Positions 51,345 to 61,414 are shown, numbered from the stretch's first letter. The stretch is 64,000 nucleotides of DNA from Bacteroidales bacterium (GCA_026416115.1 JAOAFU010000080.1:15899-79898), one strand, 5' to 3'. Notes: a model not told the origin generated them from the letters alone. Numbers and translations: made by a program.

Positions 51345-52778
51345 ATGTTACGACGCGATTTTTTACGTTTACTGGGTTTAACGACTGCAGGGATTGGGAT
51401 TGGACAAAATGTTAGAGCAAAAGCATATCTTTCTACCGACGATATTAAGGCAATTCATTTTGACAAGTTTTGGTGGGGTGTAGCCACCGCAGCCTATCAG
51501 ATAGAAGGAGCTGCAAATGTCGATGGAAAAGGTTTGTCAATTTGGGATAAGTTTACGCACGAAAAGCTTGGGAGAATTAAAGATAGATCCAATGCTGATG
51601 TAGCTTGCGATTTTTATCAAAGATTTTCGACCGATATTCCGTTAACCGCCTCTCTTGGATTCAATGCTTTCCGTTTTTCTACTTCCTGGACTAGAATTAT
51701 GCCCAATGGTTCGGGTGAGATTAATCTTAAAGGGATAGATTATTATCATCGGGTTATCGACACTTGTCTTGAAAATGGACTTACACCATGGCTAACCCTC
51801 TACCATTGGGATTTACCTCAGAGTCTCGAGGAAAGGGGTGGATGGCAGAATAGGGAAATTGTCGACTGGTTTGGCGAATATACCTATTTGTGCGCAAAGA
51901 CATATGGTGATAAAGTTAAGCACTGGATAGTTCTAAACGAACCTCTAAGTTTCACGCTTTTTGGCTATGGCATAGGAATTCATGCCCCTGGAAAAATTGG
52001 ATTGGATAAATTCTTCAGAGCTGCACATCATGCCGCGCTTGCACAAGCTGAGGGTGGGCGGATATTACGACAAGTTATTGGCTCAGATGCGCATATTGGC
52101 TCAGCTTTTTCCTGCTCGCCTATTTATCCATTCAATCCTAATTCCGAGCACGATGTAAGAGCTGCAGTACGTATCGATGCCGTAGTAAACAGGATGTTCA
52201 CTGAGCCTACGCTAGGTATGGGATATCCATACAACGATGCCCCCATTCTTCGTAAAATAGATAAACATATGCTGCCCAACGACGAAAAAAAGTTGGTTTT
52301 CGATTTCGACTTCTGGGGTCTACAACACTATTTCAGAATTGTTCTTAAAGGTAATGCGCTTATTCCTATTCTAAAGGCCTATCAGGTAAAACCTTCAAAA
52401 CTGGGTAAAACTACTACTATGAACTGGGAAATTTTTCCCGAAGGAATTTATCAAATCCTAAAGCAATTTCAGAAATATCCTGTGAAAGAATTTGTGATTA
52501 CAGAGAATGGAGCAGCCTTTGCTGAAAAGTTAGAGAATAACACAGTTAACGATCTTCAACGTATCAGCTATTTTCAGGAATACCTTGCGCAGGTTTTAAG
52601 AGCAAAAAAAGAAGGAGTACCAGTTTCAGGATATTTTGTCTGGACATTGATGGATAATTTCGAATGGGCTGAGGGTTTCACTCAACGATTTGGTATAGTA
52701 TACAACGACTTTCAAACTCAGCAGCGATATCTCAAACAGTCGGCTTTGTGGTGGAAAGACTTTTTAAATGCTAAGTAG
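51345..52778 (+). CDS. GH1 beta-glucosidase with a Tat-type signal peptide
   Basis: Acid/base motif VLNEP and nucleophile motif ITENGAAF, plus FWWGVATAAYQIEGA. The N-terminus MLRRDFLRLLGLTTAGIGIGQNVRA resembles a twin-arginine signal. Confidence 0.9.
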   Translation: MLRRDFLRLLGLTTAGIGIGQNVRAKAYLSTDDIKAIHFDKFWWGVATAAYQIEGAANVDGKGLSIWDKFTHEKLGRIKDRSNADVACDFYQRFSTDIPLTASLGFNAFRFSTSWTRIMPNGSGEINLKGIDYYHRVIDTCLENGLTPWLTLYHWDLPQSLEERGGWQNREIVDWFGEYTYLCAKTYGDKVKHWIVLNEPLSFTLFGYGIGIHAPGKIGLDKFFRAAHHAALAQAEGGRILRQVIGSDAHIGSAFSCSPIYPFNPNSEHDVRAAVRIDAVVNRMFTEPTLGMGYPYNDAPILRKIDKHMLPNDEKKLVFDFDFWGLQHYFRIVLKGNALIPILKAYQVKPSKLGKTTTMNWEIFPEGIYQILKQFQKYPVKEFVITENGAAFAEKLENNTVNDLQRISYFQEYLAQVLRAKKEGVPVSGYFVWTLMDNFEWAEGFTQRFGIVYNDFQTQQRYLKQSALWWKDFLNAK

Positions 52779-53216
52779 AACCTTTATTACCACTTTGCGC
52801 ACAATCGACGATTCATTGATCATGATGCCTGGTTTGTGATATTCGCCTGGAAACAGGATGACAAAATAATCGTTACCCAGAGGTAGCTCGTATCCTTTAC
52901 CTTGGAAAAAGGCTATATCTTTTTCTTCGTTATATGGTTCGATACATTGAAAATTATCCCCTGCCGAGTATCCAATTTTTTCTTCACCCCAAATAAGGTA
53001 TTGAATGTCGAGATATTTCCGATGCGCCTCCCATCGAAGTTGATCGGCTGATTGGGTGGGGTACTCGTTGATAATAGCATAAATATCCCTAGTCAAATCA
53101 TATCTTTGAGGTGGTAATTCAGCTAAACTATTGTTAGTTAAGAATTGGTGTATGATTTTAAATTCGGGAAAGATAGGCTTATAACGCTGAAGTTGTTGGA
53201 TTTTGTCGCAAATCAT
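52764..53216 (-). CDS. YhcH/YjgK/YiaL family protein (DUF386)
   Basis: 150 aa. The pattern ...AHRKYLDIQYLIWGEEKIGY...FFQGKGYELPLGNDYFVILFPGEYHKP is typical of the family. It converges on the GH1 gene and overlaps it by 15 nt. Confidence 0.7.
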   Translation of the reverse strand: MICDKIQQLQRYKPIFPEFKIIHQFLTNNSLAELPPQRYDLTRDIYAIINEYPTQSADQLRWEAHRKYLDIQYLIWGEEKIGYSAGDNFQCIEPYNEEKDIAFFQGKGYELPLGNDYFVILFPGEYHKPGIMINESSIVRKVVIKVLLSI

Positions 53217-53227
53217 AAAAACTGTAT

Positions 53228-55186
53228 TTAAGGATAAATGGTTCGGTTTCCAAGTGATATGGCAAAAGTACGTTTAATCTGATTTAAATGTTGTATGTGA
53301 GCGCTAAGCATGGAAATTTTTCCTTCGTCGTTTTGTTCTTGAGCCTCTTTAAGTTGTTCTATCATTTGATTGAGCAAAGCAAGCGCTTTCTTATTCTTAA
53401 AATCCATCACAACAGAGGGTACCAGATCCTGAAGTTTCATCTCTTCGGTTTCGATCAAATTATCGGTATATCGGGCAAATAATTTTTTGCTTATAACATC
53501 TTTTTTTGATATCAGGTCGCTTACAACCGTTGTTACTTCCGGATTGGGGTGTCGGACAAAATATTCGAGTGCCATTTCACTGTCGTTGAAGTAATATCGG
53601 GCATATTCGGCAAAAATAATTTTATAAATAGGATGTTGAAAAGTTAGCTCGTCTTTAAGCACTTCCGAAATAATATACTGCGCAACAGTAATTATCCATT
53701 GTTCAGAGGAATTAGGGTGATTGCCCTGAAACAGAATATGATTCCCATAATTTAGCAATAATCGCACTAACTCTCGTTCATTTGTCTCGAAAGGGTTTGC
53801 TACTGCTTGTGGAACATGTATATTGCTAGACTCGGAAGTTACGCCATATGCTTCAACATGCTGTAGAGGTATTTTTTTCTCGAAATATTTACGGCGAAAT
53901 TGAATAATTTGAGAGTACAATAGTTGTTCGCCAGTTTTAAGAAGGGCTGCACATTCTTTTACGTATACCGAACGAATAATAGGATCGGGTATTACAGCAA
54001 TCGACTGAACAATATCGGAAATAAGAGTAGCCTTTTTTATTGGATCGGTTTGGGCCTCTTTTATTAGCAAATGTGTTTTGAAAAGAACAAAATCGGTTTC
54101 GTTGTCCTGAAAAAATTTTGTCACTTCGGCCGGAGGATGCGAACGACAAAATGAATCGGGATCTTCTCCTTCGGGAAGTAATATTACCTTGACATTTAAT
54201 CCTTCTTCCAAGACCATATCGATACCTCGTAATGCGGCCTTAATGCCTGCCGCATCGCCATCGTACACAATAGTAACATTGTTGGTAAAACGTTTAATAA
54301 GACGAATCTGGTCGACAGTCAAAGAGGTACCCGACGAAGCAACTACATTTTCGATACCTGCCTGATGCAAAGAAATAACGTCGGTATATCCTTCGACAAG
54401 GTAACATTTATCGTATTGTGAAATAGCTTTTTTGGCTTGAAAAATGCCGTATAGCGTTTTGCTTTTATGGTAAATTTCCGACTCGGGCGAATTGATATAT
54501 TTGGCTATATTTTTATCGGTCGACAGAGTCCGTCCGCCAAAAGCAATTACTTGCCCAGCAAGGCTATGAATAGGAAATATTACTCTACCCGTAAACCGAT
54601 CGTAATGGTGACCTTCTTTTTCTGATATCAATCCAGCTTTAAGAAGGAATTCGGGTTTGTAGCCCCCTTTGAGAGCTGTTTCGGTAAAAGCACGACGATT
54701 ATCGGGAGCATAACCCAGCTGAAACTTATCTATCATATCGTCGCGGATACCTCGTTCTCGAAAGTACGAAAGACCTATCGAACGACCTTCGTCGGTAGTA
54801 AGTAAGGTCTGGTGAAAAAAACGGCCAGCAAAAGCTGTAACAACCAATAGGCTTTCGCGTTCGTTCTTCAGTGCAAGGTCGTCGGAAGTTGCTTCTTTCT
54901 CAATTATGGGAATGTTGTATTTCCTGGCAAGATACTTGAGGGCCTCGTAATAGCTTAACCCCTCGTGTTCCATGATAAAATTAACAGCATTTCCTCCCTT
55001 CCCACAACCAAAACATTTGTATATCCCTTTCGATGGTGAAACCGAAAACGATGGGGTCTTTTCATTGTGAAAAGGACAAAGGCCTGTGTAATTGGCTCCT
55101 CTACGTTTTAAAGTTACAAAGTCGCCAACCACTTCCACTATCTGTGCTGTCTCATAAATCCTATCGATGGTGGACTGATCAATCAT
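53228..55186 (-). CDS. dnaG: DNA primase
   Basis: Zinc-binding motif CPFHNEKTPSFSVSPSKGIYKCFGCGKGGN and a TOPRIM region (LVEGYTDVISL, YDGDAAG). Confidence 0.95.
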   Translation of the reverse strand: MIDQSTIDRIYETAQIVEVVGDFVTLKRRGANYTGLCPFHNEKTPSFSVSPSKGIYKCFGCGKGGNAVNFIMEHEGLSYYEALKYLARKYNIPIIEKEATSDDLALKNERESLLVVTAFAGRFFHQTLLTTDEGRSIGLSYFRERGIRDDMIDKFQLGYAPDNRRAFTETALKGGYKPEFLLKAGLISEKEGHHYDRFTGRVIFPIHSLAGQVIAFGGRTLSTDKNIAKYINSPESEIYHKSKTLYGIFQAKKAISQYDKCYLVEGYTDVISLHQAGIENVVASSGTSLTVDQIRLIKRFTNNVTIVYDGDAAGIKAALRGIDMVLEEGLNVKVILLPEGEDPDSFCRSHPPAEVTKFFQDNETDFVLFKTHLLIKEAQTDPIKKATLISDIVQSIAVIPDPIIRSVYVKECAALLKTGEQLLYSQIIQFRRKYFEKKIPLQHVEAYGVTSESSNIHVPQAVANPFETNERELVRLLLNYGNHILFQGNHPNSSEQWIITVAQYIISEVLKDELTFQHPIYKIIFAEYARYYFNDSEMALEYFVRHPNPEVTTVVSDLISKKDVISKKLFARYTDNLIETEEMKLQDLVPSVVMDFKNKKALALLNQMIEQLKEAQEQNDEGKISMLSAHIQHLNQIKRTFAISLGNRTIYP

Positions 55187-55244: not shown

Positions 55245-57644
55245 TTACCCCATGATGGCCACAATCGTATTTTCTTCTTTTAAAACATGGTAGGGTATCA
55301 AATTTCCTTCAATTATCTGCCCGTTGACTACTATACGTTTAATACCCTTCTCGACTCTTTCGGGATTAGAAATTTTAATATTCAACAATTTTCCACGGAA
55401 TCGACGTACAACCGAAAACTCTTCCCATTGGGCTGGAATGCAAGGATCTATTATCATCCCATAATAATGAGGGCGAATACCCAGAATATATTGCGTTGCT
55501 ACATAGTACGACCAAGTAGCAGAACCGCTTAGCCAAGGAAGACGTGAGGCTCCAAAATGAGGACTGTATTTTCCATGAGTCGATTGGTTATATACGTATG
55601 GTTCAATTTGTCGGATTTCGGCTCTATCATTATAGGCTGCCGGAAGGTATGCTCTGAAATATTGATATGCTCTGGATCCTCTGCCAAGAATAGTTTCGGC
55701 CATTACAGCCCAGCCTTGCGTATGGGTAAAAATGGCTCCGTTTTCTTTCATGCTTGGGTTAAATAGAGCCGAACGTATGGTTTGATAGTCGACCCCATAG
55801 GTGTAAGGTGGATTACATAGCGCAATACCATACTCGGTTGCCAACCATTCGTGTACTTTATCCATTACTAGATAAGCCTTTTCTTTGTCGACAATACCAC
55901 TTATAACAGCCCAAGCTTGAGGATTAAGATATATCTTTCCTTCTTTGTTTTCGCGAGAACCAACTTTTTCGCCAGCAGCAGTGTATCCCCGTAAAAACCA
56001 TTCGCCATCCCAACCGTATTGCCAAATTTTTGTATCCATTTCGCTTAGTTGAGCACTAGCCCATTGTTTTTCAGATTCATTTTCGAGGACTTCACATATT
56101 TCAATATATTCTTTTAAAGCAAAGCGTATTTGCATGGCCACAAACATGCTAACACCTCGACGTCCGAATCTTAGACAGTCGTTCCAGTCGGCCAACAAAC
56201 CACTGGGTAAATCGTACCAACCAACTCTTTCGAGGTTAAATTCTATAGCTTTACGAAGATGTCCCAACACAGAATCCTCGCCCTTATCGGCATATGGGAG
56301 CACTTTATTGTAAAAGTCAATATCGCCTGTTTCTTTAACATAGGCTGGAACTGCGTTAAAAAGCCACAAACAGTCGTCGGAACGGTATTGGTTTTCATCT
56401 GGTGCTTTCTCGTGTCCGGGTTTATGAGTAATTCTATTAACTACAGGCATAGCTCCACCGGTTGAGACCTGACCTGTTATCATCAGCTCGAGACGTTGTC
56501 GGGCGTCGTCGGGGCTGTTAGCAATAACACCCAAAACATCCTGTACGCTATCGCGGTAACCGAGTCCATCGCGTTCCATAGCTGTATAAACCAGGCTGGC
56601 TGCACGACTCCAATTGAAGGTAACCTGACAGTTGTAAGGACTCCACATATTTAACATGCTGTTTAACTCGGGATCGGGCGTTGTTACCTGAATAGCATCG
56701 ATACGGCTGTGCCAATAATTTTTTAAGCGTTCAAGCTCGTACTCAAGAATATCCACTCGGCCAAAATTTTGCACAGCATTTTTACCTTCTTTTGCAGCTT
56801 CGCCAATTCCCATCAAAACAATCAAATCGCGACTTTCGCCTGGTGCAAGTTCAATATCAATTTGGGTTACACCGCAAACATTGTCGCCAGCAGCCATAAA
56901 ATTGCTACATTTCCCCTTTTCAACAACAATTGGATTGGCATAGGTGCGGTAAGGGCCTAGAAAACGCGACAGGTCGGTCTCGTGGCCTGCAATCTCACCA
57001 CCCAAAAAGGCCAAAAATGTATGTCTTCCCTGATCGTTCTCTGCAAAGTTTTCAGGCATTGGAGGAATATGTACGTTGGTTCCATGATCAATAATCCCGT
57101 CAACAACCGACATTTTAGCAATATACTGGGTGTACTGCAGGTTTAGCAGATCCTGAAGTGCATTCCAGCAATTTGCGTATTCTACGAAAGTAAAAATACT
57201 CAGCTTACGTAATTTCTGGTCGTTGTTAGTAACTTTCAACTTCCATACCTCGAAGGTTTGTCCAAGAGGAACAAAATAGGTTGTTTCGGTTGCAATGTTG
57301 CTATATTTTGAGGAAATGATGGTATATGCTGCACCGTGCCGACATTCCGTTTGATAAAGTTCGAGGGGTTTACCTACAGGTTGCCACGAGGCCGACCAAT
57401 AATCGCCACTTTCTTTATCACGAAGGTATAAATATCTGCCTGGTTGGTCCATTGGTATGGCATTAAATCGTATGCGAGTAAAACGACCCATACCCCCCGA
57501 TTTATAGAAACTATATCCCCCTGCATTATTAGTAATAATAGCTCCATATTCTGTTGAACCCAGATAATTACTCCACGAGCGTGGTGTGTCGGGACGAGTA
57601 ATGACATATTCCTTGCGAATATCGTCGAAATATCCGAATTGCAT
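55245..57644 (-). CDS. GH94 cellobiose (or cellodextrin/chitobiose) phosphorylase
   Basis: Collinear by-eye match to clostridial cellobiose phosphorylase: MQFGYFDD..KEYVIT.P.TP..W.NYLG, YRDSVQD, ADWNDCL, GEWFLRGY, PYVYNQS, and a C-terminus ending ...IMG. Length ~800 aa. Confidence 0.9.
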   Translation of the reverse strand: MQFGYFDDIRKEYVITRPDTPRSWSNYLGSTEYGAIITNNAGGYSFYKSGGMGRFTRIRFNAIPMDQPGRYLYLRDKESGDYWSASWQPVGKPLELYQTECRHGAAYTIISSKYSNIATETTYFVPLGQTFEVWKLKVTNNDQKLRKLSIFTFVEYANCWNALQDLLNLQYTQYIAKMSVVDGIIDHGTNVHIPPMPENFAENDQGRHTFLAFLGGEIAGHETDLSRFLGPYRTYANPIVVEKGKCSNFMAAGDNVCGVTQIDIELAPGESRDLIVLMGIGEAAKEGKNAVQNFGRVDILEYELERLKNYWHSRIDAIQVTTPDPELNSMLNMWSPYNCQVTFNWSRAASLVYTAMERDGLGYRDSVQDVLGVIANSPDDARQRLELMITGQVSTGGAMPVVNRITHKPGHEKAPDENQYRSDDCLWLFNAVPAYVKETGDIDFYNKVLPYADKGEDSVLGHLRKAIEFNLERVGWYDLPSGLLADWNDCLRFGRRGVSMFVAMQIRFALKEYIEICEVLENESEKQWASAQLSEMDTKIWQYGWDGEWFLRGYTAAGEKVGSRENKEGKIYLNPQAWAVISGIVDKEKAYLVMDKVHEWLATEYGIALCNPPYTYGVDYQTIRSALFNPSMKENGAIFTHTQGWAVMAETILGRGSRAYQYFRAYLPAAYNDRAEIRQIEPYVYNQSTHGKYSPHFGASRLPWLSGSATWSYYVATQYILGIRPHYYGMIIDPCIPAQWEEFSVVRRFRGKLLNIKISNPERVEKGIKRIVVNGQIIEGNLIPYHVLKEENTIVAIMG

Positions 57645-57666
57645 AGTTTTCTGATTAAAATAGTTA

Positions 57667-59874
57667 CTAATTGTTTAAATTACGTCGCTGTGCTAATTCT
57701 GCTGTCATTTGTGCCAGCGTTTTTTCATTGAGCTTATAGAAGAGCATGGTCAGCCCTGCTAAAATGAGACCCATTGTAGGGATGTAACTTATCAGTAATC
57801 GTATACCTTCTTGGGCGTGCGCATTCTGTAATACATTGGCCTGAAAACCAAAATAAGCCAACAACCAGCCTGTAATTGCACTTCCAATAGCCCAACCAAA
57901 TTTAAGCGAGAAGACCGAAGCTGAAAGAACTAATCCTGTAGCCCGTCTACCGGTTTTCCATTCCGAATAGTCGGCAGAGTCGGTGTACATAGCCCACAAA
58001 AGAGGGGACAAAGGACCGGTAAAAAACTGAAGTATAGTTTGTAAGGCAAACATGGGAATCAGCTGGTCGGGTTTTACGTAGTAAGTCAATATTGTAAATA
58101 GCGAGCCCATAATGATGAGCGCAATGAAAGAGGACTTTTTTCCGTACTTTTTTGCCACAAATTGAATAAGAAAAGCACCTGCAAGGGAGGCAAGTGTTCC
58201 TGCAACAAGATATAACGATGCCAACTGGGTGTTTCCTACATAGTACTTAAAGTAGTAAATAATTGCGCTTTGTCTTACTGCAACATAAATTTGCATAAAA
58301 ATACTTAACGCAAAAAGTGCTAACCATGGCTTATTCTTTAGGAGGTCTTTAAGATCGTCTTTTATAGACGAAACTTTTTCGCTAATAGGCTTCACTCTTT
58401 CGCGGGTTGTAGCGAAAGTTATAAAAAACATCATAATAGCAATCAATGCAAATACCGACATGGTATGAAAATATCCTTTGGCTTCATTTACAACAGTTGC
58501 CGAAAACTGCATATCATTTCCGTCAATATCTGTAAAAATACTTGCCAAGGATATGGTATCTACACCAAAACCTTTATCTAGGGTTTGGTTTGGAATGAAT
58601 TGTTTTACGAACGGCGGATTGTTGCCTTTATGCACTACCGAAATTTTAAGTGTATCTGTTGCATAGCCTCCTTGTGTGTCGTAAGCATAAACAATTATAT
58701 TGGCAAAGCCTAAACCTGCTTCTTTTATTACCAATTGTCCATCTTTGATAGTAGCACCTACTACTTTAGGGTCGGTTGATGTGGCAAAAAAATGTAACTT
58801 GTCTGAGGTATTGTCGACAAACAATCCCGACAAAGGAATAATTTGTGATTTAAAATTTTGTTCCAGAGTAAGTGGTTGAAGTCGGTTTGCTACTCGAGGG
58901 AAGTTATTATTTTTGTTGGAAATAATGATAGGAAACGATAACGTAGCTGTTCCTGCTTTATTGCTAGCATTAACAGTTATCGTAGCAAGCCCTTTACCCT
59001 TTTCGTGAATAAACAGCAAGCCATTTTTAATAGAAAGTTTGGCTACTCTTGGATTGTCAATCTGGACGTCAAATTCTAATGTTTTCGCGTCGGGTGAACT
59101 GAAAAATTGATTCAGATCAACTGTATGTGTTAAAAAACCAGACCATAAGGTATCGGGTTGAGGTTGTGCTAAGATTTTGGGAGGTTTAAGTCCTGGTTTT
59201 AAAATTTTAACAACAAACTCAGTTGCTTGAGTTGCTCCACTACTATCTTTTGCAGTAACAATAATGCGTGCCGAACCTGTTCCTTTTTCAAAGAGTATAA
59301 GCTTGTCACCTTCTAGTTTAGATTCAACAATTTTATTATCGTCCTTACCCAGCTGATTGACAAGGGGTAGTGTAGCTGCTTGAACAACTATTCCAGCCAA
59401 AAAGGCAAACACGAACTTATACGAGGAAGCACTCTCACGTGCATGAGGGTCGGGCGATATTACACCTAAAAGGGCAGAATAAGGAACATTGATGAGCGAG
59501 TAGATCATCATCATAAGCGTATAGGTAATGTAAGCAAAAATGAGCTTACCCCCCTGGCTTAGATCGGGAGCTAAGTATGTAAGTGCGCCTATTACGCCAA
59601 AAGGAACAGCCAACCAAAGAAGATAAGGTCGAAATTTACCCCATCGGGACTGAGTACGATCGGCTATAATACCAACCAAAGGATCGAAAAAAGTATCCCA
59701 CACGCGGGTAACCAAAAACATGGTTCCTACAGCAGCTGCCGAAAGTCCAAAGATATCGGTATAATAATACAGTAAAAAAATGGTGAAAGGTTGCCAAAAC
59801 AGGTTCGATGCAAAATCGCCTGTAGCATAGCCAAGCTTTTCCTTTAAGCTTAGCTTAAAAGATGTTAAGTTCAT
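57667..59874 (-). CDS. GPH-family (MFS_2) glycoside:cation symporter carrying a ~290-aa cadherin/Ig-like repeat insertion in loop 5-6
   Basis: GPH loop 2-3 signature GIIADRTQSRWGKFRPY, with 5 TM before and 7 TM after an insert spanning track residues ~200-490. The likely start MNLTSFKLSLKEKLGY is at 59874; the track ORF begins at 59946. It lies 22 nt upstream of the GH94 gene on the same strand. Confidence 0.8.
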   Translation of the reverse strand: MNLTSFKLSLKEKLGYATGDFASNLFWQPFTIFLLYYYTDIFGLSAAAVGTMFLVTRVWDTFFDPLVGIIADRTQSRWGKFRPYLLWLAVPFGVIGALTYLAPDLSQGGKLIFAYITYTLMMMIYSLINVPYSALLGVISPDPHARESASSYKFVFAFLAGIVVQAATLPLVNQLGKDDNKIVESKLEGDKLILFEKGTGSARIIVTAKDSSGATQATEFVVKILKPGLKPPKILAQPQPDTLWSGFLTHTVDLNQFFSSPDAKTLEFDVQIDNPRVAKLSIKNGLLFIHEKGKGLATITVNASNKAGTATLSFPIIISNKNNNFPRVANRLQPLTLEQNFKSQIIPLSGLFVDNTSDKLHFFATSTDPKVVGATIKDGQLVIKEAGLGFANIIVYAYDTQGGYATDTLKISVVHKGNNPPFVKQFIPNQTLDKGFGVDTISLASIFTDIDGNDMQFSATVVNEAKGYFHTMSVFALIAIMMFFITFATTRERVKPISEKVSSIKDDLKDLLKNKPWLALFALSIFMQIYVAVRQSAIIYYFKYYVGNTQLASLYLVAGTLASLAGAFLIQFVAKKYGKKSSFIALIIMGSLFTILTYYVKPDQLIPMFALQTILQFFTGPLSPLLWAMYTDSADYSEWKTGRRATGLVLSASVFSLKFGWAIGSAITGWLLAYFGFQANVLQNAHAQEGIRLLISYIPTMGLILAGLTMLFYKLNEKTLAQMTAELAQRRNLNN

Positions 59875-59975
59875 AGGTGTGTGTGTTAAGTTTTTCTCTG
59901 GGTGCATAAGTAACAAATCTTTCCGAAATTTCAAAATTGTATGCAAATTAGCAAAAGGAAATAAACTGAAAAAGT

Positions 59976-59983
59976 TATTTTTG
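59976..59983 (+). promoter_or_regulatory. Bacteroidota -7 promoter box TATTTTTG upstream of the GroES-like gene
   Basis: Exact TAnnTTTG match ending 15 nt before the ATG at 59999. Confidence 0.35.
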
Positions 59984-59998
59984 CCGAAAATTTTTTGT

Positions 59999-60382
59999 AT
60001 GGAACTGGAATTTCAGCCCGAAGGACTCGATAAAATTCACGTTGTTGGCGATCGTGTGCTTATTAAACCAAGGACATTTCAGGAACGTACGTCGAGTGGA
60101 TTGTTTTTGCCTCCAGGAATACAGGAAAAAGAGAATATTATGTCGGGGTATGTGCTCAAAGTAGGCCCTGGTTATCCTATCCCCGCTATTTTTGATCCCG
60201 ATGAACCATGGAAAGAAAAATCCGATACGGTAAAATATGTACCGCTTCAGGCTAAGGAGGGAGATTTAGCTGTTTTTCTTCATAAGAGCGCATACGAGAT
60301 TGAGTTCGATAGAGAGAAATATTATGTTGTGCCTCACTCTGCCATTTTGTTGCTCATAAGAGACGAGGATTTATTTAAATGA
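59999..60382 (+). CDS. Cpn10/GroES-family protein (127 aa, with an internal insertion, no adjacent groEL)
   Basis: GDRVLIKP...TSSGLFLP......SGYVLKVGPG parallels the GroES sequence DRVIVKR...SAGGIVL....RGEVLAVGNG. The first ATG after the promoter box is at 59999; the track ORF starts at 59879, inside the divergent gene. Confidence 0.6.
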   Translation: MELEFQPEGLDKIHVVGDRVLIKPRTFQERTSSGLFLPPGIQEKENIMSGYVLKVGPGYPIPAIFDPDEPWKEKSDTVKYVPLQAKEGDLAVFLHKSAYEIEFDREKYYVVPHSAILLLIRDEDLFK

Positions 60383-60433: not shown

Positions 60434-61414
60434 ATGCAAAAAAAAGTTTTGGGTGTTGGTAATGCACTGGTAGACATACTCGTCAATATTGATGACAATT
60501 TTCTTGAGAAGAATCATCTGGCAAAGGGCTCAATGCAATTGGTTGATAAAGAGCGTATTGAAGAGCTTCTGACAAAGCTCGACAAGACCAATTTACAACA
60601 AGCTTCGGGAGGTTCGGCTGCCAATACTATATTTGGACTTAATGGTTTGGGTACCGAAACAGGTTATATTGGCAAAATAGGACATGACCCACTTGGAAAT
60701 TATTTTATTCAAGAGCTTAGTAAACAGAACATACTTTCTAAGGTATTGTATTCCGAGAAAACTGACACAGGAACAGCTCTAACGCTTATTACGCCCGATT
60801 CGGAACGGACTTTCGCAACTTATCTCGGGGCAGCTGTCGAACTGGGTGCTGACGATCTTCGTCCTTCCTTTTTTAAAGATTTCTCTCTCTTGCATCTCGA
60901 AGGTTATCTGGTATATAATCACCAGCTTATCGAGCATTCGATTCATTTAGCTAAAAATGAGGGCATGGAAATTTCTCTCGATCTTGCAAGTTATAATGTA
61001 GTTGAGGCAAATAAAGATTTTCTTTATCGCATAATAGAAGAAGCAGTAGATATTGTTTTTGCTAATGAGTTAGAAGCAAAAGCGTTAACCGGTAAAGAGC
61101 CTGAGGATGCTGTCGAAAAAATTGCTCAAATTTGTAAGGTGGCTGTAGTGAAGGTTGGTGCTAAAGGTTCTTGGGTAATGGTAGGTAAGGATAAATATTT
61201 TATCGAAGCCTTTAAAGTTAAAAGTATCGATACAACAGGAGCAGGAGACCTTTATGCAGCTGGCTTCCTACACGGATATCTTAATAATTGGCCGTGGATA
61301 TCCTGTGGAAAACTTGGTTCGCTTGTAGCAAGTGAGGTCATACAGGTAATAGGGGCCAAGGTACCCACCGAAAAATGGGAAGATATCAACAGGCTAAAAA
61401 CGACGATGGTTTAA
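60434..61414 (+). CDS. PfkB-family carbohydrate/nucleoside kinase (adenosine-kinase-like)
   Basis: N-terminal GxGNALVD and the C-terminal PfkB signature DTTGAGDLYAAGFLHG. Confidence 0.8.
   Translation: MQKKVLGVGNALVDILVNIDDNFLEKNHLAKGSMQLVDKERIEELLTKLDKTNLQQASGGSAANTIFGLNGLGTETGYIGKIGHDPLGNYFIQELSKQNILSKVLYSEKTDTGTALTLITPDSERTFATYLGAAVELGADDLRPSFFKDFSLLHLEGYLVYNHQLIEHSIHLAKNEGMEISLDLASYNVVEANKDFLYRIIEEAVDIVFANELEAKALTGKEPEDAVEKIAQICKVAVVKVGAKGSWVMVGKDKYFIEAFKVKSIDTTGAGDLYAAGFLHGYLNNWPWISCGKLGSLVASEVIQVIGAKVPTEKWEDINRLKTTMV

What the first reader, a model, noticed from the sequence alone, without database searches (positions are those of the whole stretch)
57667..59874. Sugar symporter with three cadherin/Ig-like domains inserted into a periplasmic loop, coupled to a cellobiose phosphorylase
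The ORF has the hallmarks of a 12-TM GPH/MFS_2 glycoside:cation symporter. These include the loop 2-3 signature DRTQSRWGKFRPY and the central loop TTRER that follows TM6. Between predicted TM5 (FAFLAGIVVQAATLPLV) and TM6 (YFHTMSVFALIAIMMFFITFA) it carries about 290 extra residues (track residues ~200-490, nt 58477-59349). That makes it ~736 aa, against the ~450-480 aa usual for the family. With the standard N-in topology, loop 5-6 faces the periplasm. The insert is built from ~93-aa repeats with a cadherin-like/bacterial-Ig signature (..P.tL..gF....I.Ls.lF.D.....l.F.a...dp.V..a.I.dG.L.I.E.G.G.A.I.V.A.D..G......l.I.V). There are two full copies, at residues 255-347 (nt 58906-59184) and 349-442 (nt 58621-58902). 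A C-terminal half-copy opens the insert (residues 203-250, KLILFEKGTGSARIIVTAKDSSGATQATEFVVKIL). An N-terminal half-copy closes it (residues 443-489, IPNQTLDKGFGVDTISLASIFTDIDGNDMQFSATV). The two halves could complement each other into a third domain, which would bring both ends of the insert back to the membrane. The gene sits 22 nt upstream of a GH94 cellobiose phosphorylase on the same strand. The insert may therefore act as a built-in periplasmic glycan-capture module. I know of no described GPH transporter with this architecture.
Basis: partly seen in the sequence, partly recalled or inferred. Interest (0 to 1): 0.7.

Follow-up and report, generated by a model that had tools for sequence, protein, structure and literature searches.

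The report
Sugar symporter with nested periplasmic Ig-like domains
A bacterial sugar importer of a well-known family carries three cadherin/Ig-like domains in one outward-facing loop, the first split so that the chain leaves and re-enters the membrane through the same domain; hundreds of unnamed relatives share this layout and I found no description of it.

Summary
ORF 57667..59874 (-) encodes a 735-aa GPH/MFS_2 symporter. Its Pfam match is split by a 291-aa insert (res 176-466, nt 58477-59349) between TM5 and TM6, a periplasmic loop by homology to MelB and by the positive-inside rule.

Profile comparison shows the insert is B0-R1-R2-A3. R1 and R2 are full ~95-aa domains. B0 is a C-terminal half and A3 an N-terminal half, and joined A3+B0 aligns full-length to R1/R2. 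AlphaFold2 gives 4+7+7+3 strands, and Foldseek matches the insert to tandem Ig/cadherin arrays. A profile of the insert hits about 25,700 proteins. The top hits I checked carry Big_9/Cadherin_4/He_PIG repeats.

It is not an artefact. 31 of the top 120 homologue clusters share the layout, 63 carry only the permuted B0+A3 unit, and 26 have no insert.

GH94 adjacency (22 nt here) holds for all three classes, and one insert-bearing relative sits next to GH130 instead. The closest characterised relative of this GH94 uses cellotriose and mixed-linkage oligosaccharides, not cellobiose.

What the insert does is untested. Glycan capture is my leading guess. Verdict: a new variant of a known kind, apparently undescribed.

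The parts
57667..59874 (-). Complete CDS of the 735-aa GPH/MFS_2 symporter (stop codon 57667-57669)
   Evidence: ORF list. Pfam MFS_2 341 bits and NCBIfam gph 404.8 bits. The ATG at 59874 matches homologue N-termini.
59350..59874 (-). N-terminal membrane part, TM1-TM5 (res 1-175), including the loop 2-3 motif DRTQSRWGKFRPY
   Evidence: MelB alignment 8-179 -> 3-174. AF2 helices H10-41, 46-73, 82-98, 107-137, 143-176.
59188..59349 (-). B0: the C-terminal half (4 strands) of a split cadherin/Ig-like domain, directly after TM5 (res 176-229)
   Evidence: hhalign to columns 44-94 of R1 and 42-94 of R2, E~1e-15. AF2 strands 183-188, 191-196, 200-210, 215-225 at pLDDT ~87-92.
58903..59187 (-). R1: first complete Big_9/cadherin-like beta-sandwich domain (res 230-324)
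   Evidence: hhalign R1 vs R2 E=3e-32. Seven AF2 strands. Weak Pfam Big_2/Invasin_D3 hits lie here.
58615..58902 (-). R2: second complete Big_9/cadherin-like domain (res 325-420)
   Evidence: hhalign. Seven AF2 strands. Foldseek matches to tandem Ig/cadherin arrays.
58477..58614 (-). A3: the N-terminal half (3 strands) of the split domain, running straight into TM6 (res 421-466). It carries a DIDGND motif.
   Evidence: hhalign to columns 2-46 of R1/R2, E~1e-16/2.5e-17. AF2 strands 430-433, 438-442, 455-462, followed by helix 464-489.
57670..58476 (-). C-terminal membrane part: TM6, the central cytoplasmic loop (TTRER...) and TM7-TM12 (res 467-735)
   Evidence: Pfam MFS_2 res 461-717 = profile 164-427. 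AF2 helices. Foldseek TM-score 0.80-0.85 on MelB/MFSD2A.
57645..57666 (-). 22-nt intergenic spacer between the transporter and GH94 (probable co-transcription)
   Evidence: Coordinates. The same gene order occurs in L007, L002, L003, L005, L006 and L009.
55245..57644 (-). Cytoplasmic GH94 beta-1,4-glucoside phosphorylase (799 aa)
   Evidence: Pfam Glyco_hydro_94 448.8 bits plus GH94 supersandwich 260.4 bits. Best PDB match 8BOU at 762 bits, CBP 3QDE at 564, ChBP 1V7V at 554.

Best explanation
The gene encodes a cation-coupled GPH (MFS_2, TC 2.A.2) symporter of an uncultured Bacteroidales bacterium. It most likely imports short beta-1,4-linked gluco-oligosaccharides (cellobiose, cellotriose or mixed-linkage oligosaccharides) from the periplasm. 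The co-transcribed cytoplasmic GH94 phosphorylase would then cleave them.

The protein's periplasmic TM5-TM6 loop, about 11 residues in insert-free relatives, has been replaced by a 291-aa module of three Big_9/cadherin-like beta-sandwich domains. The membrane-proximal domain is split, that is circularly permuted relative to the chain. Its four C-terminal strands (B0) follow TM5, and its three N-terminal strands (A3) run straight into TM6. Two ordinary domains (R1, R2) are nested between the halves. The TM5 and TM6 ends therefore sit where the C-D loop lies in a canonical unit, and both ends of the insert return to the membrane.

The simplest origin is tandem duplication of the permuted one-domain unit. 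(B-A)x3 reads as B-[AB]-[AB]-A.

Shown here: the architecture, the topology by homology, the fold class, conservation across lineages, and linkage to cytoplasmic oligosaccharide phosphorylases.

Inferred: the module is an accessory rather than an essential part of transport. Close relatives with the same GH94 neighbour lack it. My best guess is that it binds incoming oligosaccharide, possibly with Ca2+, next to the entrance of the transport path and so raises the local substrate concentration.

My confidence in the architecture is about 0.9. My confidence in the glycan-capture role is about 0.35.
For: - Family and topology.
- Insert anatomy and split domain: hhalign; AF2: 4+7+7+3 strands in the three-domain form, 4+3 in the one-domain form, pTM 0.79 and 0.80; sequences of the one-domain class.
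- Fold class: one search gives Foldseek hits to GH107 Ig-like domains, SbsB, titin Z1Z2, protocadherin-15 and desmocollin at E 1e-7 to 1e-5. One search gives 25,694 profile hits. One search shows the hits are Big_9/Cadherin_4/He_PIG/Cadherin_5 repeats, two of the six checked with T9SS tails.
- Reality and age: searches show 31 three-domain, 63 one-domain-class and 26 insert-free clusters among the top 120. One search shows domain units cluster by position in 29 of 36 nearest-neighbour tests across 12 divergent proteins. One search gives insert pN 0.25 against saturated pS ~0.79, so the insert is still under purifying selection.
- Metabolic link: GH94 lies next to or near the transporter in the window, L001, L002, L003, L004, L005, L006, L007 and L009, and GH130 plus an epimerase in L010.
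- Precedent for carbohydrate binding by bacterial cadherin-like domains: Fraiberg et al. 2011, J Bacteriol 193:283. I saw this only as a citation in PMC3124978 and could not read the paper itself.
Against: No binding or transport data exist. Within the insert, the invariant and near-invariant residues are mostly Gly, Pro, Phe, Ala and the E-x-G-x-G and A-x-D motifs. These look structural, and no conserved surface aromatic platform typical of CBMs is evident.

The insert is only 61% identical between two orthologues whose core is 93.5% identical. That fits a spacer or a fast-evolving interaction surface at least as well as a fixed sugar site.

The DxDGxD motif is intact only in A3 of this protein. 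It is degenerate in R2 and absent in R1.

Relatives of these domains are mostly repeats in giant surface proteins, where such domains are usually thought to act as stalks (my background knowledge). Packing of B0 against A3 was not seen directly because no coordinates were available.
Confidence: 0.55

Rival explanations
1. The insert is a protein-protein docking module. It tethers a periplasmic partner to the inner-membrane importer so that products are channelled. The partner could be a periplasmic beta-glucosidase (GH1 or GH3), the periplasmic face of a TonB-dependent outer-membrane transporter, or another copy of the transporter. This would resemble the way the Ig-like P2 loop of MalF docks the maltose-binding protein.
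For: Ig/cadherin-like domains are typical interaction modules. The insert evolves fast (61% against 93.5% identity), as co-evolving interfaces often do. The conserved residues look structural rather than sugar-binding. A probably periplasmic GH1 with a Tat-like leader lies three genes away and is syntenic in L007. The precedents are MalF-P2 (review PMC6906923, listed, not read) and the PepT1/2 extracellular domains, which were proposed to recruit trypsin (my recollection of PMC4597091, listed but not read beyond the start of its abstract).
Against: No conserved partner gene travels with insert-bearing transporters in the contexts examined. Apart from the phosphorylase, the neighbours differ. 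Nothing here tests binding.
Confidence: 0.25
2. The insert is a passive structural appendage with no ligand of its own. It could be a rigid spacer or shield on the periplasmic face, for example keeping the entrance clear of peptidoglycan and lipoproteins or stabilising the N-lobe. It would have arisen by capture and duplication of a common surface-protein repeat, and it would be dispensable.
For: Close relatives with the same GH94 neighbour lack it entirely. Insert-free clades are interspersed with three-domain clades on the core tree, which suggests repeated loss. The domain type is mainly found as a repeat in giant secreted proteins. Constraint on the insert is low.
Against: The three-domain arrangement, with positional orthology, is kept down to ~40% overall identity and across phyla (Bacteroidota and KSB1). 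pN remains well below pS. Linker lengths to TM5 and TM6 are conserved and very short. Together these argue for selection on more than mere presence.
Confidence: 0.17
3. The long ORF is an artefact: an assembly chimera or a frameshift fusion that places foreign Ig-repeat sequence inside a normal transporter gene.
For: None beyond the unusual length. GC content dips slightly over the insert (0.35-0.37 against 0.41-0.44 in the flanks).
Against: The same insertion point and the same B0-R1-R2-A3 order occur in 31 independent clusters from NCBI, JGI, ENA and Logan assemblies at 38-83% identity. These include contigs of 119 kb and 6.2 Mb. The frame is continuous, and the MFS_2 profile resumes exactly where it stopped.
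Confidence: 0.01
4. The insert faces the cytoplasm because the topology is inverted relative to MelB.
For: None.
Against: The full-length fold matches MelB/MFSD2A (TM-score 0.80-0.85). K/R residues cluster in loops 2-3, 6-7 and 10-11 and in the C-terminus: 17 in about 77 residues, against 1 in 30 for the short opposite loops. The cytoplasmic loop 2-3 signature DRTxSRxGKFRP is intact. Relatives of the insert domains checked are mostly secreted, and two of the six carry T9SS sorting tails.
Confidence: 0.02

Closest known systems
MelB / GPH family (TC 2.A.2; Pfam MFS_2; Salmonella MelB structures 4M64, 7L16)
   Same: The 12-TM core is the same, as are the loop 2-3 motif, the central loop, and the cation-site aspartates (MelB D55/D59 = D60/D64 here). 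Pfam and NCBIfam scores are above their cut-offs, and Foldseek gives TM-score ~0.8.
   Different: MelB has a loop 5-6 of a few residues, whereas this protein has 291 aa of beta-sandwich there. The MelB sugar-site residues D19, D124 and W128 are N24, N129 and S133 here, and N58 is F63 (alignment). Sugar specificity therefore differs, and cation specificity may differ too. A 2026 review gives 400-550 aa as the normal length of glycoside MFS transporters and mentions no Ig-like inserts (PMC13543919).
Mammalian PepT1/PepT2 (SLC15, POT family of the MFS) extracellular domain
   Same: It is an MFS transporter with immunoglobulin-like beta-sandwich domains inserted in an extracytoplasmic loop (PMC4597091). 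This is the closest functional and architectural analogue.
   Different: It belongs to a different MFS family, sits in a different loop (TM9-TM10, not TM5-TM6) and is eukaryotic. It has two ordinary tandem domains rather than a split domain with two nested ones. There is no detectable homology. The loop position and domain number for PepT come from my background knowledge and from the title and the start of the abstract shown.
MalF P2 loop of the E. coli maltose ABC importer
   Same: A bacterial sugar importer whose membrane subunit carries a large Ig-like periplasmic loop domain. That domain takes part in substrate delivery by docking the binding protein (review PMC6906923, listed; details from background knowledge).
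   Different: It is an ABC importer rather than a secondary transporter. It has one domain, which is not permuted, and it is unrelated in sequence.
Big_9 / Cadherin_4 / He_PIG repeats of large bacterial surface proteins (Pfam PF17963, PF17803, PF05345)
   Same: The domain family is the same. A profile of the insert finds these proteins at E=0, and the matched regions are the Pfam Big_9/Cadherin_4 domains. They share the motif pattern L..GF....I.L...F.D.DGD.L.Y ... E.G.G.A.I.V.A.D..GG.
   Different: There the domains form long tandem arrays in secreted proteins of 1,000-7,800 aa, some with T9SS tails. Here three units are embedded in a transporter loop and one of them is circularly permuted. 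The window protein itself stays below Pfam thresholds.
One-domain relatives (for example Marinifilum flexuosum WP_120239173.1 and the Puteibacter caeruleilacunae protein P0029)
   Same: They belong to the same transporter clade, have the same insertion point and the same B0 and A3 halves (hhalign E=1e-15 and 5e-13), and have GH94 neighbours.
   Different: A ~10-17-residue linker with a short helix replaces R1+R2. They are annotated only as 'MFS transporter' or 'sugar transporter'.

Membership tests
GPH cation symporter (TC 2.A.2 / Pfam MFS_2 PF13347 / TIGR00792) | Profile match above the curated threshold | tested here: met
   PF13347 scores 341 bits (cut-off 27). TIGR00792 scores 404.8 bits (cut-off 231.35). 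Both matches are split in two by the insert.
GPH cation symporter (TC 2.A.2 / Pfam MFS_2 PF13347 / TIGR00792) | Twelve TM helices as 6+6 with a central cytoplasmic loop, and an MFS fold like MelB | tested here: met
   AF2 model with pLDDT 85 and pTM 0.79, showing 12 TM helices. Foldseek TM-score 0.80-0.85 to MelB and MFSD2A.
GPH cation symporter (TC 2.A.2 / Pfam MFS_2 PF13347 / TIGR00792) | Loop 2-3 signature D-R-T-x-S-R-x-G-K-[FW]-R-P and conserved cation-site aspartates in TM2 | tested here: met
   DRTQSRWGKFRPY is read directly at res 72-84. D60 and D64 align with MelB D55 and D59, and MelB N58 is F63 here.
GPH cation symporter (TC 2.A.2 / Pfam MFS_2 PF13347 / TIGR00792) | Cation-coupled glycoside transport activity | not testable with these tools
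   This needs uptake assays. The substrate is inferred only from GH94/GH130 neighbours.
Big_9 / bacterial cadherin-like Ig domains (PF17963, PF17803; E-set) | Pfam match above the gathering threshold in this protein | tested here: not met
   The insert alone gives only Invasin_D3 at 19.5 bits (cut-off 33) and Big_2 at 15.3 bits (cut-off 22.8). Relatives P0012, P0013 and P0045 carry a precomputed PF17963 hit, marked faint for P0012.
Big_9 / bacterial cadherin-like Ig domains (PF17963, PF17803; E-set) | Profile-level homology to bona fide family members | tested here: met
   The insert profile A2 gives 25,694 hits at E<=1e-3. The top hits checked are Big_9/Cadherin_4/He_PIG/Cadherin_5 arrays whose Pfam domains overlap the matched stretch, for example P0224 at 230-506 against Big_9 at 374-462.
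Big_9 / bacterial cadherin-like Ig domains (PF17963, PF17803; E-set) | Seven-stranded beta-sandwich fold | tested here: met
   AF2 gives 7 strands each in R1 and R2, and 4+3 in B0+A3, at pLDDT ~75-94. Foldseek matches tandem Ig/cadherin structures at E 1e-7 to 1e-5.
Big_9 / bacterial cadherin-like Ig domains (PF17963, PF17803; E-set) | Ca2+-binding Asp-rich loop (DxDxDG-type) | tested here: inconclusive
   A3 has FTDIDGNDMQF, R2 has the degenerate FVDNTSDKLHF, and R1 has FSSPDAKTLEF. The family consensus keeps F.D.DGD.L.Y in R2 and A3. Metal binding was not tested.
GH94 cellobiose phosphorylase (EC 2.4.1.20), for the neighbouring gene | GH94 catalytic domain plus N-terminal supersandwich | tested here: met
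   PF17167 scores 448.8 bits and PF06165 scores 260.4 bits.
GH94 cellobiose phosphorylase (EC 2.4.1.20), for the neighbouring gene | Specificity for cellobiose | tested here: inconclusive
   The closest solved relative is 8BOU, BpGH94MLG, at 762 bits. It is inactive on cellobiose and active on cellotriose, G4G3G and G4G4G3G. Cellobiose phosphorylase scores 564 bits and chitobiose phosphorylase 554 bits. An enzyme assay is needed.
Carbohydrate-binding module (functional class) | Demonstrated glycan binding, or a conserved aromatic binding platform | not tested
The conserved positions in the insert are mostly Gly, Pro, Phe, Ala, Asp and Glu in structural motifs, and surface exposure could not be computed without coordinates.

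The most novel reading that the evidence does not exclude
The nested cadherin-like module is a built-in periplasmic receptor. It would make this a secondary (MFS) transporter with its own tethered substrate-capture or hand-off domain, comparable to the fused substrate-binding domains of some ABC importers or to TRAP-type binding proteins. Alternatively it could be a physical bridge that receives oligosaccharides from the outer-membrane uptake machinery. Because strand C' of the split domain runs directly into TM6 and TM5 runs into strand D', the module could be mechanically coupled to the rocker-switch cycle.
Probability: 0.25. Interest if true: 0.8.

Novelty: new variant of a known kind. Interest (0 to 1): 0.6.

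Why it matters
GPH/MFS_2 symporters are treated as compact 12-helix proteins of about 450 aa. Inner-membrane import is also the least studied step of glycan use in Bacteroidota.

A widespread, conserved family with one or three periplasmic cadherin-like domains grafted onto the N-lobe would show that bacterial secondary sugar transporters can carry extracytoplasmic accessory modules. So far this is known mainly from mammalian PepT1/2.

It also offers a clean natural example of a circularly permuted, split beta-sandwich that lets a multi-domain insert enter and leave the membrane at one point, and of how tandem duplication of a permuted unit produces ordinary domains.

In practice, current annotation ('MFS transporter') hides the feature. 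The insert-free, one-domain and three-domain orthologues form a ready-made comparison set for testing what the module adds to oligosaccharide uptake.

Tried and rejected
- BLASTP of the insert against itself found no internal repeat. The repeats are visible only at profile level.
- Direct Pfam and NCBIfam scans of the insert gave only sub-threshold Ig hits.
- The structure tools return no coordinates (one search shows no model files), so B0-A3 contacts and the relative arrangement of the three domains could not be read. I used the one-domain class as an indirect test.
- Foldseek with the one-domain model returned only MFS hits. This is expected, because a permuted single domain cannot align sequentially.
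- dN/dS between the window and its nearest DNA homologue (L007) could not be computed because synonymous sites are saturated (pS ~0.8). Only pN and identity are reported.
- The profile search of the insert was swamped by giant repeat proteins, so it gives no count of insert-bearing transporters.
It is not a census.
- Five literature searches aimed at the architecture (GPH + Ig-like; MFS + cellobiose phosphorylase + Bacteroidetes; GH130/epimerase + symporter; MFS + Ig-like + PUL; MFS_2 + Big_9) found no description of it. This is absence within the held library only.
- The Fraiberg 2011 paper on cadherin domains as CBMs is not held.
- A Bacteroidetes promoter motif upstream of the ATG was looked for by eye and not found convincingly.
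- Chimera, frameshift and cytoplasmic-location explanations were considered and rejected (see rival explanations).
Full report

Yes. The window has one uninterrupted ORF on the minus strand, 57667..59946 from a TTG. The ATG at 59874 gives 735 aa and matches the N-termini of all close homologues.

Pfam MFS_2 matches at 341 bits in two pieces. Residues ~6-180 cover profile positions 4-178, and residues 461-717 cover positions 164-427. NCBIfam's GPH model TIGR00792 scores 404.8 bits against a cut-off of 231. Salmonella MelB (4M64) aligns to residues 8-179 (MelB 3-174) and again after the insert. No hydrophobic stretch lies between residues ~177 and ~468. About 290 residues have therefore been added between TM5 and TM6.

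The downstream gene, 55245..57644 on the same strand and 22 nt away, has the GH94 catalytic and supersandwich domains.

**2. Topology**

The AlphaFold2 model was built on an alignment of 32 three-domain homologues and has mean pLDDT 85 and pTM 0.79. It shows 12 TM helices, with TM5 ending at residue 176 and TM6 starting at 464. The membrane part superposes on MelB and MFSD2A with target-normalised TM-scores of 0.80-0.85.

Loops that are cytoplasmic in MelB hold 17 Lys/Arg in about 77 residues. The short loops on the other side hold 1 in 30 (that tally was made on a sequence shifted by one residue, which does not affect it). The cytoplasmic loop 2-3 signature DRTQSRWGKFRPY is intact. The insert is therefore periplasmic by homology and charge bias. 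This is inference, not experiment.

**3. Anatomy of the insert (res 176-466, nt 58477-59349)**

BLASTP self-comparison shows nothing, and Pfam gives only sub-threshold Invasin_D3 and Big_2 hits. Profile-profile comparison of slices of the family alignment is unambiguous:
- R1 (230-324) vs R2 (325-420): E=3e-32 over 94 columns.
- B0 (176-229) aligns to the C-terminal half of the unit (columns 44-94): E~1e-15.
- A3 (421-466) aligns to the N-terminal half (columns 2-46): E~1e-16 to 2.5e-17.
- The artificial join A3+B0 aligns over the full length of R1 and R2: E=1e-26 and 3e-27.

AF2 predicts 7 strands in each of R1 and R2, 4 in B0 and 3 in A3, with pLDDT ~75-94 across the insert. Only 6 residues separate TM5 from the first strand, and 1 residue separates the last strand from TM6. 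Foldseek matches the insert to tandem Ig/cadherin arrays: the Ig-like domains of GH107 fucanases, SbsB, titin Z1Z2, protocadherin-15 and desmocollins, at E 1e-7 to 1e-5.

A profile of the insert searched against 1.84 billion representative proteins finds 25,694 proteins at E<=1e-3. The best are proteins of 1,000-7,800 aa with up to 37 repeats. Pfam labels the matched regions of six of them Big_9, Cadherin_4, He_PIG or Cadherin_5. Two of the six carry T9SS sorting tails, Por_Secre_tail in one and CHU_C in the other.

**4. The split domain**

Among the 120 best homologue clusters there are three size classes:
- 26 have an 11-19-residue loop and no insert.
- 63 have a 102-171-residue insert.
- 31 have a 295-334-residue insert.
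- None has an insert of the size expected for two domains.

The one-domain insert is exactly B0 (E=1e-15), then a short linker, then A3 (E=5e-13). Against the canonical unit, its first part aligns to columns 42-94 and its second part to columns 9-47, which is a circular permutation. AF2 on a one-domain protein (Puteibacter P0029, 56-sequence alignment, pTM 0.80) predicts 4 strands, a short helix and 3 strands, at pLDDT ~63-88.

In that class the two halves have nothing else to pair with. Half a beta-sandwich is not expected to be stable alone, so the halves must complement each other there, and by homology here too.

I could not view contacts directly, because the tools return no coordinates. 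This step is well supported but not seen.

The TM5 and TM6 ends correspond to the loop between strands C and D of a canonical unit. Tandem duplication of a permuted unit explains the layout naturally, since (B-A)(B-A)(B-A) reads as B-[AB]-[AB]-A.

**5. Not an artefact, and old**

The same insertion point and domain order occur in independent NCBI, JGI, ENA and Logan assemblies at 38-83% identity. These include Bacteroidales and candidate division KSB1, on contigs up to 6.2 Mb.

Across 12 divergent three-domain proteins, the nearest neighbour of a domain unit in another protein sits at the same position in 29 of 36 cases. The triplication therefore predates their divergence.

On a neighbour-joining tree of the membrane core, three-domain forms fall in at least six places among insert-free clades, while nearly all one-domain forms make one large clade. 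This suggests an old insert with repeated loss, but the tree is crude.

Against its closest DNA-level orthologue (L007, a syntenic Bacteroidales MAG), the core is 93.5% identical in protein and the insert 60.8%. Non-synonymous divergence (pN) is 0.043 for the core and 0.25 for the insert, and synonymous sites are saturated at ~0.8. The insert is constrained, but about six times less than the core.

**6. Genomic and metabolic context**

A GH94 gene lies next to or near the transporter in every context I fetched deliberately:
- Three-domain: the window, L007, L002/L003, and L001 (a longer GH94 two genes away, among GH3, GH30, GH5 and GH17 genes).
- One-domain: L004, between two GH94 genes and with GH9 and GH5 nearby.
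- Insert-free: L005 and L006.

In the genome scan, L009 (three-domain) and several insert-free loci also have a GH94 gene nearby. Most of the more distant insert-free GPH paralogues there do not.

One three-domain member, L010, is instead followed by two GH130 phosphorylases and a cellobiose-2-epimerase-like gene. That is the beta-mannan type of cassette.

The link is therefore between this transporter clade and cytoplasmic phosphorylases of beta-1,4-linked oligosaccharides. It is not a link between the insert and GH94.

The window's GH94 is closest to BpGH94MLG from Blautia producta (8BOU, 762 bits). Cellobiose phosphorylase scores 564 bits and chitobiose phosphorylase 554. BpGH94MLG cleaves cellotriose, G4G3G and G4G4G3G but not cellobiose (PMC10318527). 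'Cellobiose phosphorylase' is therefore not established, and the cargo may be DP3-4 beta-glucan oligosaccharides.

The rest of the window is ordinary chromosome with no adjacent SusC/D pair (PBP1, PriA, DnaG, CstA, a TonB-dependent receptor about 33 kb away).

**7. How it most likely works**

Shown: a GPH symporter core; a periplasmic three-domain cadherin-like module anchored through a split domain on the N-lobe; co-transcription geometry with a cytoplasmic GH94.

Inferred: the protein imports beta-1,4 gluco-oligosaccharides for phosphorolysis. The module is an accessory, because orthologues with the same neighbour lack it.

Its role is open, and I see three readings:
- Glycan capture next to the entrance, possibly Ca2+-dependent (~0.35). 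Bacterial cadherin-like domains have been reported to act as carbohydrate-binding modules. I know this from Fraiberg et al. 2011, seen only as a citation and not readable here. A DIDGND motif also survives in A3.
- A docking surface for a periplasmic partner (~0.25).
- A passive spacer or shield (~0.17).

Several points count against a fixed sugar site. The conserved insert residues look structural, divergence is fast, and the Asp-rich motif is degenerate in R1 and R2 of this protein.

**8. Comparison with what is known, and novelty**

The core is a bona fide GPH member. MelB's sugar-site residues D19, D124 and W128 are N24, N129 and S133 here. The cation-site aspartates are kept, but N58 is F63.

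The closest analogues for the appendage are the Ig-like extracellular domains of mammalian PepT1/2 (a different MFS family and a different loop, not permuted; PMC4597091) and the Ig-like P2 loop of MalF in the maltose ABC importer.

A 2026 review of bacterial glycoside transporters gives 400-550 aa as the normal MFS length and mentions no such insert (PMC13543919). Five literature searches aimed at the architecture found no description.

In databases the proteins are called only 'MFS transporter' or 'sugar transporter', including those of cultured Marinifilum species.

I rate it a new variant of a known kind. It is real and widespread, and I found no description of it. It is structurally neat, but its function is untested.

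Noticed in passing
window 51345-52778 (+): A GH1 beta-glucosidase (Pfam 476.8 bits) has a twin-arginine-like leader (MLRRDFLRLLGLTTAGIG), so it is probably periplasmic. It lies three genes from the GH94 and is syntenic in L007. It could trim beta-glucosides before import.
   Followed up: partly
window 53228-55186 (-): The DnaG primase gene sits 58 nt downstream of GH94 on the same strand, followed by a DUF386 (YhcH/YjgK/YiaL) gene at 52764-53216. The same order is kept in the MAG locus L007. This is an odd neighbourhood for a sugar-uptake pair.
   Followed up: no
L010:5989-11647: A three-domain transporter of a Bacteroidales MAG is followed by two GH130 phosphorylases and a GlcNAc_2-epim (cellobiose-2-epimerase-like) gene, with no GH94 within 6 kb. 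This is a beta-mannan-type cassette, which suggests the insert-bearing clade spans more than one substrate.
   Followed up: partly
L004:5546-14725 (Puteibacter caeruleilacunae): A one-domain transporter is flanked by two different GH94 genes (60% and 35% identical to the window's), with GH9, GH5, sulfatases and a GDSL/deacetylase gene nearby.
   Followed up: no
proteins P0107, P0111, P0113, P0115, P0100 (134-aa inserts) and P0119 (171-aa insert): A subclade of the one-domain class has a much longer and unrelated-looking segment between the B0 and A3 halves. Some three-domain proteins (P0013, P0014, P0015, P0081, P0084) have extra 10-40-residue insertions inside R1 or R2.
   Followed up: no
window 57667-59874 (-), res 24, 63, 129, 133: MelB sugar-binding residues D19, D124 and W128 are N24, N129 and S133 here. 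The Na+-site residue N58 is F63, while D55 and D59 are conserved (D60, D64). The coupling ion may therefore be H+ rather than Na+.
   Followed up: no
window 55287-55532 (+): An 81-aa ORF lies entirely inside the GH94 gene on the opposite strand. It is most likely spurious.
   Followed up: no
window 59879-60382 (+): A divergently oriented gene with a weak, split Cpn10 (GroES-like) match is followed by a PfkB-family sugar kinase at 60434-61414. Both are syntenic in L007. The listed GTG start overlaps the transporter's upstream region, and the orthologue in L007 is only 127 aa, so the true start is probably the internal ATG (MELEFQPEG...).
   Followed up: no
window 58250-59250: GC content over the insert (0.35-0.37) is lower than over the flanking membrane-coding parts (0.41-0.44). 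This fits the different amino-acid composition but was not analysed further.
   Followed up: no
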